Shown here piece after piece: positions 24,660 through 29,013 of a DNA stretch of 40,708 bases; positions within the stretch are counted from its first letter, which is position 1, and every line of letters begins with the position of its first letter. Under the pieces are notes generated by a model. That model saw nothing but the letters and a program-made list of their open reading frames with translations. It did not search any database and was not told the origin of the DNA. Origin of the DNA: Przondovirus NAN33P2; the sequence record OZ035820.1. One strand, written 5' to 3'. The position numbers were made by a program, and so were the translations under genes.

Positions 24660-25691
24660 ATGGCTAACATGCAAGGTGGACAGCAGCTCGGTACCAACCA
24701 AGGTAAAGGTCAATCCGCAGCAGACAAGCTGGCGCTATTCCTGAAAGTATTCGGCGGTGAAGTCCTGACCGCATTCGCTCGTACCTCTGTGACCACCAAC
24801 CGTCACATGCAGCGTCAAATCAGCTCCGGTAAGTCCGCACAGTTCCCTGTGATTGGCCGCACCAAGGCTGCTTACCTACAACCGGGCGAGTCTCTGGACG
24901 ACAAACGCAAAGACATCAAGCACACCGAGAAGACCATTAACATTGATGGCCTGCTGACTGCGGACGTGCTGATTTATGACATCGAAGACGCGATGAACCA
25001 CTATGACGTGCGCTCCGAGTACACCTCTCAGATTGGTGAGTCTCTGGCGATGGCAGCTGATGGTGCGGTACTGGCTGCGCTGGCTGAGCTGGCTAACCTC
25101 GCGGATTCCGTCAACGAGAACATCGCTGGTCTGGGCAAACCGTCCCTGCTGGAAGTTGGCGCTAAGGCTGACCTGACCGACCCGGTCAAACTGGGCCAAG
25201 CGGTTATCGCACAGCTGACCATCGCTCGTGCAGCTCTGACCAAGAACTACGTCCCGGCGAACGACCGTACGTTCTACACCACCCCGGACGTGTACTCTGC
25301 GATTCTGGCGGCTCTGATGCCTAACGCTGCGAACTATGCGGCCCTGATCGACCCTGAGCGCGGTTCTATCCGTAACGTGATGGGCTTCGAGGTCGTCGAG
25401 GTTCCGCACCTGACCGCTGGTGGTGCTGGTGATGACCGCCCGGACGAAGGCGCAGAAGCGACCAACCAGAAGCACGCCTTCCCGGCAACTGGTGGTAAAG
25501 TCAACAAAGAGAACGTTGTTGGCCTGTTCCAGCACCGTTCCGCTGTTGGTACCGTTAAGCTGAAAGACCTCGCTCTGGAGCGTGCTCGCCGCGCTGAGTA
25601 TCAGGCTGACCAGATTATCGCTAAGTACGCGATGGGCCATGGTGGTCTGCGTCCAGAATCTGCTGGTGCACTGGTTTTCACAGCAGCCTAA
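24660..25691 (+). CDS. gp10A: Major capsid protein (10A)
   Basis: 343 aa; near-identical runs to recalled T7 gp10A (GTNQGKG, DKLALFLKVFGGEVLTAFARTSVTT, IAKYAMGHGGLRPE). Confidence 0.95.
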   Translation: MANMQGGQQLGTNQGKGQSAADKLALFLKVFGGEVLTAFARTSVTTNRHMQRQISSGKSAQFPVIGRTKAAYLQPGESLDDKRKDIKHTEKTINIDGLLTADVLIYDIEDAMNHYDVRSEYTSQIGESLAMAADGAVLAALAELANLADSVNENIAGLGKPSLLEVGAKADLTDPVKLGQAVIAQLTIARAALTKNYVPANDRTFYTTPDVYSAILAALMPNAANYAALIDPERGSIRNVMGFEVVEVPHLTAGGAGDDRPDEGAEATNQKHAFPATGGKVNKENVVGLFQHRSAVGTVKLKDLALERARRAEYQADQIIAKYAMGHGGLRPESAGALVFTAA

Positions 25692-25969
25692 GCGTAAATA
25701 CCTTTAGTGCTCGGACGGTAACTCCGTCTGAGTACGAGGTACAGACTGTGGCCATTGCTGGTGATTCACTTAAGGTGACACTTGATGGGCTGGAGGGAGT
25801 AACGGACTGGTCAACCCTTGAGGTAACTTACGGTACTTCCGGGATTGCCAGCCATACTCGCCGGACCAACACGCTGTACTTCAAAGGAATCGCTGTAGGC
25901 GAAACTCTAGTGACTGTCAGCTTTGACGGGTCTGAAAGGAAGTCCTTTAAGCTGGTCGTGACTAATTAA
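24660..25969 (+). CDS. gp10B: Minor capsid protein (10B) made by -1 frameshift near 25673-25679
   Basis: The -1 frame is open from the slip site to TAA at 25967-25969, giving a product of about 436 aa with a 96-aa extension. Confidence 0.6.
25673..25679 (+). other. -1 programmed ribosomal frameshift site (G GTT TTC)
   Basis: Heptamer GGTTTTC in the 10A frame four codons before the 10A stop; matches my recollection of the T7 gene 10 shift site. Confidence 0.5.
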
Positions 25970-25981
25970 AACTAAGCCAAA

Positions 25982-26019
25982 CCCCTTGGGGACCACTCAC
26001 GGTCTCTGAGGGGTTTTTT
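25982..26019 (+). terminator. Phage RNAP terminator (Tphi-like)
   Basis: CCCCTTGGGGACC...GGTCTCTGAGGGG hairpin followed by TTTTTT; closely resembles recalled T7 Tphi. Confidence 0.8.
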
Positions 26020-26036
26020 CGTTAGGAGCTTACATT

Positions 26037-26615
26037 ATGAACATGCAAGATGCTTACTTTGGGTCTGCCGCTGAGCTGGATGCTGTCAACGAGATGCTCG
26101 CAGCTATCGGTGAATCCCCGGTGACAACCCTTGACGAAGATGGTAGTGCAGACGTGGCGAACGCTCGTCGTATCCTCAACAGGATTAACCGCCAGATTCA
26201 GTCTAAAGGTTGGGCCTTCAACATCAACGAGTCGGCCACACTGACCCCGGACGCCAGCACTGGGCTTATCCCATTCCGCCCTGCCTACCTGTCCATACTT
26301 GGTGGCCAGTACGTTAACCGTGGTGGCTGGGTGTACGATAAGTCCACAGGGACGGACACCTTCTCTGGACCAATCACCGTGACCCTGATTACCCTTCAGG
26401 ACTACGACGAGATGCCTGAGTGTTTCCGCCAGTGGATTGTCACCAAGGCCAGCCGCCAGTTCAACTCTCGGTTCTTCGGAGCGGAGGACGTAGAGAACTC
26501 TCTGGCACAGGAAGAGATGGAAGCACGGATGGCGTGCAACGAGTACGAGATGGACTTCGGACAGTACAACATGCTCGACGGTGACGCATACGTTCAGGGT
26601 CTCATCGGTCGTTAA
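26037..26615 (+). CDS. gp11: Tail tubular protein A
   Basis: 192 aa; matches recalled T7 gp11 ([47 protein letters not shown]). Confidence 0.9.
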
Positions 26616-26637
26616 TCAGAAACTTAAGGAGGACCAA

Positions 26638-29013
26638 ATGGCTCTCGTATCACAATCAATCAAGAACCTCAAGGGAGGCATTAGCCAACAGCCTGAAATC
26701 CTACGGTACCCAGAGCAGGGTTCACTTCAGGTCAACGGTTGGTCCTCCGAGACTGAGGGCCTCCAGAAGCGACCACCTATGGTGTTCATCAAGTCCTTAG
26801 GAGGCCGTGGGTATCTTGGGGAAGACCCCTACATCCACCTCATCAACCGTGACGAATACGAGCAGTATTACGCTGTGTTCACAGGGAATGACGTTCGGGT
26901 ATTCGACCTGTCCGGCTATGAGTATCAGGTCCGAGGTGACCGCTCATACGTTACCGTCAATAACCCTAAGGATAACTTGCGGATGGTCACAGTGGCTGAC
27001 TACACGTTCATCGTGAACCGCACCAGACAGGTCCGAGAGAGTAAGAACTTGACCAACGGTGGTACATTCAGGGATAACGTGGACGCCCTCATTAACGTTC
27101 GCGGTGGTCAGTATGGGCGAAAGCTCGAAGTGAACATTAACGGCGTGTGGGTAAGCCACCAACTGCCTCCGGGTGACAACGCTAAGGAGGACCCACCAAA
27201 GGTCGACGCACAGGCTATCGCTGAGGCCCTAGCGACTCTTCTCAGAACGGCACACCCTACGTGGACGTTCAACGTTGGAACAGGGTTCATTCATTGTATA
27301 GCTCCGGCAGACACCACACTTGACATATTCGAGACAAAGGATGGGTATGCAGACCAGCTAATCAATCCGGTCACCCATTACGTCCAGAGCTTCTCTAAGT
27401 TGCCTCTGAACGCCCCAGATGGGTACATGGTGAAGATTGTCGGAGATACGTCAAAGACCGCCGACCAGTATTACGTTAAGTACGACAAGAGTCAGAAGGT
27501 CTGGAAGGAAACTGTTGGATGGAACATCTCGATAGGACTGGATTACACCACTATGCCTTGGACACTGGTTCGCGCAGCTGACGGTAACTTCGACCTCGGG
27601 TATCACGATTGGAAGGACCGACGTGCTGGCGACGAGGATACCAACCCTCAGCCATCCTTTGTGAGCTCGACGATAACTGATGTGTTCTTCTTCAGGAACC
27701 GCTTAGGGTTCATCTCTGGGGAGAACATCGTGATGTCACGTACCAGTAAATACTTTGAGTTCTACCCGCCGTCAGTGGCCAACTACACGGATGATGACCC
27801 ACTGGATGTTGCTGTGAGCCATAACCGAGTGTCTGTCCTGAAGTATGCTGTGAGCTTCGCTGAGGAGCTTCTACTGTGGTCTGATGAGGCACAGTTCGTC
27901 CTGTCGGCCAACGGTGTGTTATCCGCTAAGACCGCACAACTTGACCTGACCACCCAGTTCGACGTGTCAGACCGTGCGCGTCCTTACGGTATCGGCAGGA
28001 ACATCTACTATGCGTCTCCTCGCAGCTCCTTTACGTCCATCATGCGCTACTACGCGGTACAGGATGTAAGCTCTGTGAAGAACGCAGAGGACATGACGGC
28101 TCATGTACCGAACTACATCCCGAACGGTGTGTATAGCATCAACGGGTCTGGTACGGAGAACTTCGCGTGTGTACTGACCAAGGGCGCTCCCAGCAAGGTG
28201 TTCATCTACAAGTTCCTCTACATGGATGAGAACATCCGGCAGCAGTCGTGGTCCCACTGGGACTTCGGGGACGGTGTGGAGGTGATGGCCGCAAACTGTA
28301 TCAACTCGACGATGTACATGCTGATGCGGAATGCCTACAACGTGTGGATAGCTGCGGTGGACTTTAAGAAGAACTCTACGGACTTTCCGTTCGAGCCTTA
28401 CCGATTCCACGTGGACGCCAAGCGTTCATACCACATCTCAGAGACTGCGTACGACATTGAGACGAACCAGACGGTAGTGAACGTCAAGGATATCTACGGT
28501 GCGTCGTTCTCTAAGGGTACCGTGGCAATCTGCGAGAGTGATGGTAAAATCACCGAGTACGAGCCTACGGGTTCCTCTTGGGATTCAACCCCGGACATCC
28601 GCATTAGCGGTGACATTTCCGGTAAGGACATTGCCATCGGGTTCCTGTACGACTTCCAGTATGTGTTCAGTCGGTTCCTCATCAAGCAGGAGCAGAATGA
28701 TGGGACAACGTCGACGATCGACTCTGGTCGTCTACAGCTGCGCAGGGCTTGGGTGAACTATCAGGACACCGGAGCGTTCACTGTGAGTGTTGATAACGGT
28801 AACCGTGAGTTCAACTATCTGGTCAACGCCAGAGTCGGTTCTACAGGTCTGCGCCTTGGACAAAAGGCCACGACCACGGGTCAGTATCGTTTCCCGGTGA
28901 CAGGTAACGCCCTGTATCAGAAGGTGTCTCTAAGTTCCTTCAATGCTTCCCCGGTGTCAATCATCGGGTGTGGCTGGGAAGGTAACTATACCAACCGCGC
29001 TAACGGTATTTAA
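26638..29013 (+). CDS. gp12: Tail tubular protein B
   Basis: About 791 aa from ATG after AAGGAGG (six-frame ORF begins at 26581 within the gene 11 terminus); size and position match T7 gp12. Confidence 0.9.
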   Translation: MALVSQSIKNLKGGISQQPEILRYPEQGSLQVNGWSSETEGLQKRPPMVFIKSLGGRGYLGEDPYIHLINRDEYEQYYAVFTGNDVRVFDLSGYEYQVRGDRSYVTVNNPKDNLRMVTVADYTFIVNRTRQVRESKNLTNGGTFRDNVDALINVRGGQYGRKLEVNINGVWVSHQLPPGDNAKEDPPKVDAQAIAEALATLLRTAHPTWTFNVGTGFIHCIAPADTTLDIFETKDGYADQLINPVTHYVQSFSKLPLNAPDGYMVKIVGDTSKTADQYYVKYDKSQKVWKETVGWNISIGLDYTTMPWTLVRAADGNFDLGYHDWKDRRAGDEDTNPQPSFVSSTITDVFFFRNRLGFISGENIVMSRTSKYFEFYPPSVANYTDDDPLDVAVSHNRVSVLKYAVSFAEELLLWSDEAQFVLSANGVLSAKTAQLDLTTQFDVSDRARPYGIGRNIYYASPRSSFTSIMRYYAVQDVSSVKNAEDMTAHVPNYIPNGVYSINGSGTENFACVLTKGAPSKVFIYKFLYMDENIRQQSWSHWDFGDGVEVMAANCINSTMYMLMRNAYNVWIAAVDFKKNSTDFPFEPYRFHVDAKRSYHISETAYDIETNQTVVNVKDIYGASFSKGTVAICESDGKITEYEPTGSSWDSTPDIRISGDISGKDIAIGFLYDFQYVFSRFLIKQEQNDGTTSTIDSGRLQLRRAWVNYQDTGAFTVSVDNGNREFNYLVNARVGSTGLRLGQKATTTGQYRFPVTGNALYQKVSLSSFNASPVSIIGCGWEGNYTNRANGI

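What the first reader, a model, noticed from the sequence alone, without database searches (positions are those of the whole stretch)
25673..25969. Capsid -1 frameshift appends a 96-aa Ig-like domain
The 10A frame ends four codons after the heptamer G GTT TTC, and the -1 frame is open for 96 more codons. The extension (…VTLDGLEGVTDWSTLEVTYGTSGIASHTRRTNTLYFKGIAVGETLVTVSFDGSERKSFKLVVTN) has the alternating beta-strand pattern of a bacterial Ig-like (Big_2-type) domain, a module phages often attach to capsids by frameshifting. It is longer than the 53-aa T7 10B extension.
Basis: partly seen in the sequence, partly recalled or inferred. Interest (0 to 1): 0.6.

Follow-up and report, generated by a model that had tools for sequence, protein, structure and literature searches.

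The report
Capsid frameshift adds an Ig-like domain
This Klebsiella T7-like phage very probably makes a second, longer capsid protein by a ribosome slip at the same site as in T7, and the extra 96 residues are predicted to fold as an immunoglobulin-like domain; this is a new example of a known phage trick, usually mis-annotated as a separate small gene.

Summary
The window is a Przondovirus (Klebsiella phage K11/KP32 group). Capsid gene 10A (24660-25691) carries G GTT TTC at 25673-25679, in the register of the T7 10A/10B slip site. The -1 frame stays open for 96 codons, to TAA 25967-25969, giving a 436-aa, 46.4-kDa 10B.

Comparison shows the extension is translated by entry from gene 10. NGTTTTC is present in all 57 distinct relatives. 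The linker has five lengths, always keeping the domain in the -1 frame. Substitutions look like coding sequence in that frame upstream of any possible start. No start codon is conserved.

The "Ig-like" call holds at fold level only. AlphaFold gives seven strands (pLDDT about 80). The best solved match is the lambda gpV Ig-like domain. The "Big_2" label fails Pfam's test (no hit at E<=10, whereas the T3 extension scores 4.7e-10), although the family profile weakly matches Big_2 repeats elsewhere.

T7 has this site, T3 has an Ig-like extension reached from another site, and the KP32 GenBank note already mentions the shift. I rate it a new member of a known kind. No proteomic evidence was found.

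Extra finding: a conserved RNA hairpin (25699-25741) with compensatory changes lies 20 nt past the slip site. Its role is unknown.

The parts
24660..25691 (+). Major capsid gene 10A (343 aa, 36.4 kDa), 0 frame
   Evidence: ORF list. Pfam Gp10A-like 3.4e-102. 723 bits to the capsid chain of PDB 7y23 and 553 bits to T7 10A, PDB 2xvr.
25673..25679 (+). Slippery heptamer G GTT TTC (V339-F340), the proposed -1 shift site
   Evidence: Read directly. It is identical to the T7 gene 10 heptamer and in the same capsid context. NGTTTTC is present in all 57 distinct relatives: GGTTTTC in 54, CGTTTTC in 2, AGTTTTC in 1. In many relatives a -1 frame stop 7 codons upstream leaves this as the only slippery sequence in the overlap.
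25689..25697 (+). 0-frame stop TAA (25689-25691) and a second in-frame TAA (25695-25697)
   Evidence: Sequence TAAGCGTAA. In relatives where the first TAA is CAA or TCA, 10A ends at the second TAA and is 345 aa.
25679..25744 (+). -1 frame linker, extension residues 1-22 (HSSLSVNTFSARTVTPSEYEVQ), predicted disordered
   Evidence: pLDDT is below 50 for residues 1-18. The ratio of synonymous to nonsynonymous codon differences is 1.71 in the -1 frame against 0.32 and 0.10 in the other frames. Length varies between lineages only in multiples of 3.
25745..25966 (+). -1 frame Ig-like beta-sandwich domain, extension residues 23-96, followed by TAA 25967-25969
25699..25741 (+). Conserved RNA hairpin in the linker coding region (core 12 bp, 25707-25735, loop UAACU; outer 6 bp pairs ACCUUU with GAGGU)
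   Evidence: MFE and centroid fold, z = -2.9. Across 31 distinct Przondovirus sequences 98.7% of cells are paired, and two pairs show compensatory changes (A-U to G-C in 10 sequences, C-G to U-A in 8); 0 of 500 shuffles reach this. Hairpins of unrelated sequence occupy the same relative position in Kayfunavirus lineages. Function not established.
25979..26020 (+). Intrinsic terminator-like stem-loop with T run, the counterpart of T7 Tphi and of the K11 terminator annotated phiTE; contains CCCC
   Evidence: Terminator scan. The K11 record annotates the homologous stem-loop as terminator phiTE. In T7 a CCCC in the terminator is reported to affect gene 10 frameshifting (PMC5009743).

Best explanation
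A fraction of ribosomes translating capsid gene 10 slip back one base on G GUU UUC (25673-25679), with tRNA-Val and tRNA-Phe re-pairing on GGU UUU. They miss the 10A stop three codons later and read 96 more codons in the -1 frame. The product is a 436-aa minor capsid protein 10B: the complete HK97-type capsid fold up to F340, a ~20-residue flexible linker, and a ~75-residue Ig-like beta-sandwich. By analogy with T7 10B it would co-assemble with 10A, so a minority of capsid subunits would display the domain on the outside of the head.

Shown here: the site, the open frame, selection on the frame and on the protein, and the predicted fold. Inferred: that slippage occurs and at what rate (about 10% in T7), that the product is incorporated into virions, and what the domain does. 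The most likely function, weak binding to surface glycans (capsule, mucus) as proposed for other phage Ig-like domains, is speculation. A conserved hairpin 20 nt downstream and the distal terminator are candidate modulators of the shift; neither was tested.
For: 1) The heptamer is identical to T7's and sits in the same capsid C-terminal context. T7 G_GU_UUC is an established -1 site with about 10% efficiency (PMC5009743; PMC1635266). In phage K1F the same GCACTGGTTTTCA context precedes g10b, and a GFP fusion to g10b gave fluorescent phages (PMC6277420).
2) NGTTTTC is present in all 57 distinct related sequences from Przondovirus and Kayfunavirus.
3) The distance from heptamer to domain takes five values (119, 125, 128, 131, 164 nt). 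All equal 2 mod 3, so the domain is always in the -1 frame, while the 0-frame tail varies from 9 to 21 nt. The -1 frame is open from heptamer to domain in every locus.
4) The linker upstream of any candidate start evolves as coding sequence in the -1 frame only.
5) No start codon position is conserved. The window's SD-like GAGG plus GTG at 25748 occurs in only 25 of 63 distinct sequences, and gene callers report products of 73, 76, 83, 84 or 87 aa.
6) The fold model and Ig-like structural matches.
7) The KP32 GenBank record notes that the minor capsid protein arises by a -1 frameshift.
Against: No trans-frame peptide or 46-kDa band has been shown for any phage of this group in the literature I could search. 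The solved capsid of a near-identical phage (PDB 7y23) contains only the 345-aa chain. The P-site part of the heptamer (G GUU) is only partly slippery. Three relatives have C or A at the first position. No canonical stimulator lies 5-9 nt downstream. The window does have an SD-like GAGG 8 nt before an in-frame GTG (25748), so some independent initiation cannot be excluded. pLDDT of about 80 and pTM 0.58 are moderate, and the sequence fails every Pfam Ig model.
Confidence: 0.85

Rival explanations
1. The extension ORF is a separate small gene ('gp10.1' or 'minor capsid protein', 73-84 aa). It would be translated from its own start, GTG 25748 in the window, and act as a free decoration protein.
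For: GAGG at 25736-25739 lies 8 nt before GTG 25748. Most GenBank records and gene callers annotate a separate 73-87 aa ORF. A paper on Pectobacterium phages treats it as a separate gene (PMC7693777).
Against: The start position is not conserved: SD plus GTG at that codon occurs in 25 of 63 distinct sequences, and one sequence has no ATG/GTG/TTG in the first 36 codons. The 22 codons upstream of the GTG are open, evolve as coding sequence, and keep the frame through indels. The GAGG is paired inside the conserved hairpin. The ORF is in the -1 frame relative to the heptamer in every lineage.
Confidence: 0.08
2. The -1 ORF is a non-functional remnant or a chance open frame between gene 10 and the terminator, and is not translated to useful levels.
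For: Pfam finds nothing. K11's curated record annotates only 10A. Two metagenomic relatives carry truncated or disrupted versions (L042/L091 and L110).
Against: Strong purifying selection acts in the -1 frame. Homologues at 40-50% identity retain 17-21 invariant residues. The model is a confident beta-sandwich. The chance probability of the open frame is about 0.012 even before conservation is considered.
Confidence: 0.02
3. The frame change is made at the RNA level, by transcriptional slippage of the phage RNA polymerase on the T run, rather than by the ribosome.
For: The site contains TTTT, and transcriptional slippage is a known alternative route to trans-frame products (PMC5009743).
Against: From general knowledge, a run of four T is far shorter than the runs (about 8-9) at which slippage becomes efficient. 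The homologous T7 site is documented as ribosomal. What is conserved is the heptamer register, not the run length.
Confidence: 0.03

Closest known systems
Bacteriophage T7 gene 10A/10B -1 programmed ribosomal frameshift
   Same: Homologous capsid gene, identical heptamer G GUU UUC at the homologous codons (V-F, 3-4 codons before the 10A stop), a -1 extension, and a Tphi-like terminator with CCCC downstream (PMC5009743).
   Different: The T7 extension is about 53-56 residues of low-complexity, non-Ig sequence. Here it is 96 residues with a predicted Ig-like domain and no sequence similarity to T7's. The terminator is about 300 nt from the shift site instead of about 200, and a conserved hairpin lies between them.
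Bacteriophage T3 (and phiYeO3-12) 10B: Big_2 Ig-like domain appended to the capsid by a -1 frameshift
   Same: The same biological outcome: a minority of capsid subunits carry a C-terminal Ig-like domain reached by a -1 shift at the end of gene 10. The T3 domain is reported to interact with mucins (preprint 10.64898/2026.06.25.734500).
   Different: T3 uses a different slip sequence, C CCA AAG. Its domain is a bona fide Pfam Big_2 member at 4.7e-10. There is no BLASTP similarity to the window extension at E<=100, and the window-family HMM does not hit it. The two domains look like independent acquisitions.
Escherichia phage K1F g10b (Kayfunavirus)
   Same: The same heptamer and flanking sequence. 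The frameshift product is used experimentally for capsid display (PMC6277420). Other members of the same genus carry the window-type Ig-like extension.
   Different: The K1F extension is a 48-codon T7-like tail, not the Ig-like domain.
Ig-like domains on phage structural proteins (lambda gpV C-terminal domain, Hoc, N4 decoration protein)
   Different: No sequence-level membership in any Pfam Ig family. It is classed only as PHROG 7473, 'unknown function'.

Membership tests
T7-type gene 10 -1 programmed frameshift (10A/10B) | Heptamer G GUU UUC in X XXY YYZ register near the 3' end of a T7-family major capsid gene | tested here: met
   25673-25679, codons V339-F340. Capsid homology: Pfam Gp10A-like 3.4e-102 and 553 bits to T7 10A. 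Same heptamer and position in T7.
T7-type gene 10 -1 programmed frameshift (10A/10B) | -1 frame ORF that overlaps the end of 10A, continues past its stop, and is under selection | tested here: met
   96 codons are open. The frame is kept across five linker lengths. Coding-type substitutions occur in the -1 frame only.
T7-type gene 10 -1 programmed frameshift (10A/10B) | Trans-frame protein made at a set ratio (about 10% in T7) and incorporated into capsids | not testable with these tools
   No proteomic report was found for this extension. PDB 7y23 models only the 345-aa chain.
T7-type gene 10 -1 programmed frameshift (10A/10B) | Dependence on distal 3' sequence, including CCCC of the transcription terminator | tested here: inconclusive
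   A terminator with CCCC is present at 25979-26016, but dependence is a functional property. There is no G-rich partner next to the shift site like T7's GGGGG.
Pfam Big_2 (PF02368, bacterial Ig-like domain group 2) | Score at or above the Pfam gathering threshold (22.8 bits) | tested here: not met
   No Pfam family at E<=10 for the window extension or for two Kayfunavirus homologues. The positive control, the T3 10B extension, scores 39.7 bits, 4.7e-10.
Pfam Big_2 (PF02368, bacterial Ig-like domain group 2) | Remote homology detectable by profile search | tested here: inconclusive
   The family profile hits multi-repeat lipoproteins (E 7.7e-18 to 9.5e-6, summed over 3-9 weak repeats). Pfam annotates Big_2 in four of them (P0124, P0129, P0132, P0133), and there the matched stretches overlap the Big_2 stretches. 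Each single stretch is at most 22 bits. The profile does not hit the T3 Big_2 domain or any PDB chain.
Ig-like beta-sandwich fold | Two-sheet sandwich of about 7 antiparallel strands, structurally superposable on known Ig-like domains | tested here: met
PHROG 7473 (phage protein family, unknown function) | HMM match over the whole profile | tested here: met
   2.7e-43, profile positions 1-82 of 82, extension residues 14-96. A Kayfunavirus homologue scores 3.5e-37.

The most novel reading that the evidence does not exclude
The lineage-specific but positionally conserved hairpin that starts about 20-38 nt 3' of the slip site (25699-25741 here) is the element that sets the 10A:10B ratio. It would act from a distance too long for the canonical 5-9 nt spacer. 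Together with the conserved slip site it would form a 'docking cassette' behind which different C-terminal display modules have been exchanged (Ig-like here, T7-like tail in K1F and T7). If the Ig-like module also binds Klebsiella capsule or host mucus, it would influence the behaviour of a phage genus widely used for therapy.
Probability: 0.2. Interest if true: 0.55.

Novelty: new member of a known kind. Interest (0 to 1): 0.35.

Why it matters
Przondoviruses are among the most often isolated Klebsiella phages: 528 phage records match this 441-nt region. In most of those listed, the extension is annotated as a separate hypothetical or 'minor capsid' ORF, or is left unannotated. Recognising it as a frameshift-fused, surface-displayed Ig-like domain would correct those annotations. 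It would also predict a 46-kDa virion protein. It offers a natural display site, as already exploited in T7 and K1F. It raises a testable question: does the domain help these phages adhere to capsule or mucus? It also shows that one conserved slip site serves unrelated C-terminal modules within one phage subfamily.

Tried and rejected
1) Pfam scans of the window extension and of two Kayfunavirus extensions gave no family at E<=10, so direct Big_2 membership is rejected.
2) BLASTP of the window extension against the T3 10B extension gave no alignment, and the local family HMM does not hit the T3 extension.
3) Sequence and profile searches of PDB chains gave only chance-level hits with E>0.3.
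4) Rfam at E<=1 over 25500-26100 gave nothing.
5) I looked for natural in-frame capsid-domain fusions among homologues. Every family-specific hit returned is a short stand-alone ORF call; the only long proteins hit are the multi-repeat lipoproteins. No ~430-aa fusion was seen.
6) Literature searches for virion proteomics of a Przondovirus or Kayfunavirus 10B with this domain found none. The original T7 paper (PMC209055) is not held.
7) RNAalifold across lineages recovered only a 4-bp hairpin core and a GGUU/ACC pairing without covariation. I do not rely on the latter.
8) An upstream SD-like stimulator was considered by eye (GGTG 4 nt before the heptamer). I dropped it because that sequence is not conserved as SD-like (GGCG in Kayfunavirus) and the spacing is wrong.

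Full report
**What the window is.** The 441 nt around the finding match 528 phage records. Most are Klebsiella phages of the genus Przondovirus (K11/KP32 group, Studiervirinae). The best hit is 99.3% identical (Przondovirus NAN33P6). The ORF at 24660-25691 is the T7-family major capsid protein: Pfam Gp10A-like at 3.4e-102, 723 bits to the capsid chain of PDB 7y23, and 553 bits to T7 10A. Gene 11 follows at 26037. A terminator-like stem-loop with a T run lies at 25979-26016; K11's record annotates the homologous element as terminator phiTE.

**The observation.**
- The end of 10A reads GCA CTG GTT TTC ACA GCA GCC TAA. G GTT TTC is therefore at 25673-25679, in X XXY YYZ register.
- Reading -1 from C25679 gives 96 sense codons, ending at TAA 25967-25969.
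- The fusion would be 436 aa and 46.4 kDa, against 343 aa and 36.4 kDa for 10A.
- A 96-codon open stretch has a chance probability of about 0.012 at this base composition.

The one quibble is that three sense codons, not four, follow the heptamer.

**Is the extension reached by frameshifting?** I collected about 110 related loci from IMG/VR and GenBank. Five results bear on the question.
- *The site is conserved.* NGTTTTC is present at the homologous position in all 57 distinct sequences: GGTTTTC in 54, CGTTTTC in 2, AGTTTTC in 1. It is the same heptamer, at the same capsid residues, as in T7. The T7 site is an established -1 ribosomal frameshift site, used in about 10% of translations (PMC5009743; PMC1635266).
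- *The frame is kept.* The -1 frame is open from the heptamer to the end of the domain in every locus. This includes Kayfunavirus relatives whose extension is only 40-50% identical.
- *Indels respect the frame.* The heptamer-to-domain distance takes five values (119, 125, 128, 131, 164 nt), all equal to 2 mod 3. The 0-frame tail meanwhile varies from 9 to 21 nt. Indels in the "intergenic" stretch have thus been accepted only in multiples of three.
- *The shift window is narrow.* In many relatives a -1 frame stop lies seven codons upstream of the heptamer, leaving a window of about ten codons in which the heptamer is the only slippery sequence.
- *The linker is coding.* Among 42 distinct Przondovirus extension sequences, the ratio of synonymous to nonsynonymous codon differences was measured in each frame. 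For linker codons 6-24, upstream of the window's only candidate start, it is 1.71 in the -1 frame against 0.32 and 0.10 in the other frames. For the domain it is 1.45 against 0.15 and 0.13.

**The rival: a separate small gene.** Most databases annotate the region as a separate ORF (PMC7693777). The window does have GAGG 8 nt before an in-frame GTG at 25748. That combination, however, occurs in only 25 of 63 distinct sequences. No start position is shared across the family, and one sequence has no ATG, GTG or TTG in the first 36 codons. Gene callers accordingly return products of 73, 76, 83, 84 or 87 aa. I put this rival at about 0.08.

There is also experimental support for the site in a sister genus. 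Phage K1F has the same GCACTGGTTTTCA context, and GFP fused to its g10b yields fluorescent virions (PMC6277420). The KP32 GenBank entry already notes that a minor capsid protein arises by a -1 shift.

**What the extension is.**
- *Sequence searches give no family name.* Pfam finds nothing at E<=10 for the window extension or for two Kayfunavirus homologues. The T3 10B extension, run as a positive control, hits Big_2 at 4.7e-10. The window and T3 extensions show no BLASTP similarity. PHROGs places the window extension in family 7473, "unknown function" (2.7e-43). No PDB chain matches by sequence or by profile.
- *The predicted fold is Ig-like.* An AlphaFold2 model built on a 20-sequence alignment gives a disordered linker (residues 1-18, pLDDT below 50) and seven beta-strands at residues 23-94 (pLDDT about 80, pTM 0.58).
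- *Foldseek agrees.* Its best PDB hit is lambda gpV 2l04 (E 4.3e-4, 25% identity). In BFVD the best hit is the Pectobacterium phage PP81 "minor capsid protein", followed by BIG2-domain proteins and a T7M gp10B fragment.
- *There is an indirect link to Big_2.* An exhaustive HMMER search with the family profile over 1.84 billion representatives finds only 13 proteins. Besides short phage ORFs, they include large lipoproteins carrying 3-9 weak repeats (E 7.7e-18 to 9.5e-6). Pfam annotates Big_2 in four of them (P0124, P0129, P0132, P0133), and there the stretches matched by the family profile overlap the Big_2 stretches.

My reading: an Ig-like fold is supported, though by prediction only. A distant relationship to Big_2 is plausible. 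Membership of Pfam Big_2, as that family is defined, was tested and not met.

**Mechanism.** I think the most likely course is tandem slippage of tRNA-Val and tRNA-Phe from GUU UUC to GGU UUU, bypass of the TAA at 25689-25691, and translation of linker plus domain. Termination then occurs at 25967-25969, just upstream of the terminator. The product would co-assemble with 10A as in T7, displaying the domain on a flexible tether. The steps shown here are the site, the frame, selection and the predicted fold. The steps inferred are the slippage frequency, incorporation into virions and function. A glycan or mucus adhesion role is suggested only by analogy with T3 and other phage Ig-like domains (PMC5009743).

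**A possible regulatory RNA element.** The linker coding region folds into an 18-bp interrupted hairpin at 25699-25741, with a 12-bp core at 25707-25735.
- In 31 distinct Przondovirus sequences, 98.7% of pair cells are standard pairs.
- Two adjacent pairs change on both sides: A-U to G-C in 10 sequences and C-G to U-A in 8, with G-U intermediates. None of 500 shuffles, and no slid register, reaches these values.
- The compensating substitutions change amino acids (T to V or A; S to P), so the RNA pairing rather than the peptide seems to be preserved.
- Kayfunavirus lineages have hairpins of unrelated sequence at the same relative place. Two have UUCG loops. All follow a conserved TAA-NN-ACC-YTT motif.
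- Nucleotides 25691-25714 are invariant even at synonymous positions.
- The outer stem pairs ACCUUU with the SD-like GAGGU that precedes GTG 25748.

The hairpin starts 20 nt after the heptamer, too far for a canonical stimulator. Its role (frameshift modulation, occlusion of internal initiation, or mRNA stability) is open. Rfam has no match.

**Comparison with known systems and novelty.** T7 provides the site but carries a non-Ig extension. T3 provides the Ig-like outcome, but through a different slip sequence (C CCA AAG) and an unrelated, bona fide Big_2 domain. K1F shows that within Kayfunavirus the same site precedes either a T7-like tail or the window-type domain. This points to module exchange behind a fixed slip site. 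The case is therefore a new member of a known kind. It is mainly useful for correcting widespread annotation and for predicting a displayed domain on a therapeutically popular phage genus. I found no paper describing this extension as an Ig-like frameshift fusion. A 2026 paper on a Przondovirus (PMBT12) and mucin-binding Ig-like domains applies neither term (Ig-like, minor capsid) to that phage in the passages my term search returned.

**Verdict.** Confidence that 10B is made by a -1 frameshift and carries an Ig-like domain is 0.85. Interest is 0.35.

Noticed in passing
window 25699-25741 (core 25707-25735): A conserved RNA hairpin lies inside the linker coding region. It is 18 bp, 98.7% paired across 31 distinct sequences, and has two compensatory pairs. 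Kayfunavirus lineages have hairpins of different sequence at the same relative position. It begins 20 nt after the slip site. Its function is unknown.
   Followed up: partly
window 25691-25714: AGCGTAAATACCTTTAGTGCTCGG is invariant in 31 distinct Przondovirus sequences, even at -1 frame third codon positions. This is more constraint than the protein needs. Part of it is the second 0-frame stop and part is the 5' arm of the hairpin.
   Followed up: partly
window 25689-25697: There are two in-frame 10A stops (TAA GCG TAA). Relatives with CAA or TCA at the first stop end at the second, giving 345-aa instead of 343-aa 10A. The second TAA aligns with the 10A stop of Kayfunavirus.
   Followed up: partly
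L111 (Escherichia phage K1F, NC_007456) 759-910: K1F has the same heptamer, but its 48-codon extension is T7-like (…EETLTPQQKAARTRAAN…). Other Kayfunavirus members carry the Ig-like extension. Unrelated modules have evidently been swapped behind one slip site within a genus.
   Followed up: partly
P0124, P0129, P0131, P0132, P0133 (proteins): The only non-phage relatives of the domain are large proteins with 3-9 tandem repeats. The sequences retrieved (P0124, P0131, P0132) begin with lipoprotein-type signal peptides, e.g. MKKLLGLLAATGLVATTSATVVACG in P0131 and P0132 (Mollicutes-like, my reading). Pfam annotates Big_2 in P0124, P0129, P0132 and P0133, but not in P0131.
   Followed up: partly
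L110 (IMGVR_UViG_2974604219_000001) and L042/L091 (IMGVR_UViG_3300045988_007064): Two relatives have damaged extensions. In L110 the reading frame leaves the domain after about 50 residues. L042 lacks the last strand and runs into the terminator. The domain may be dispensable, or these may be assembly errors.
   Followed up: no
L040, L045 (C GTT TTC) and L108 (A GTT TTC): The first base of the heptamer is not strictly conserved. In these phages, re-pairing of the P-site tRNA would be poorer, which suggests that slippage of the A-site tRNA-Phe is what matters.
   Followed up: no
P0018: An 82-aa partial protein, 95% identical to the extension, is attributed by NCBI to Flammeovirga agarivorans on a 562-nt contig. 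This is most likely Klebsiella-phage contamination of that assembly.
   Followed up: no
L049 (OP272493) and L050 (MN414250): These GenBank records split the major capsid gene into several short CDSs. The likely cause is sequencing frameshift errors, not biology.
   Followed up: no
L002 (MH172263, KP32 isolate 195) 2482-2940: A homing endonuclease gene is annotated between genes 11 and 12 in this relative, where KP32 and K11 annotate no gene. The window's 26581-29013 ORF spans the same interval, but I did not check it for an endonuclease.
   Followed up: no
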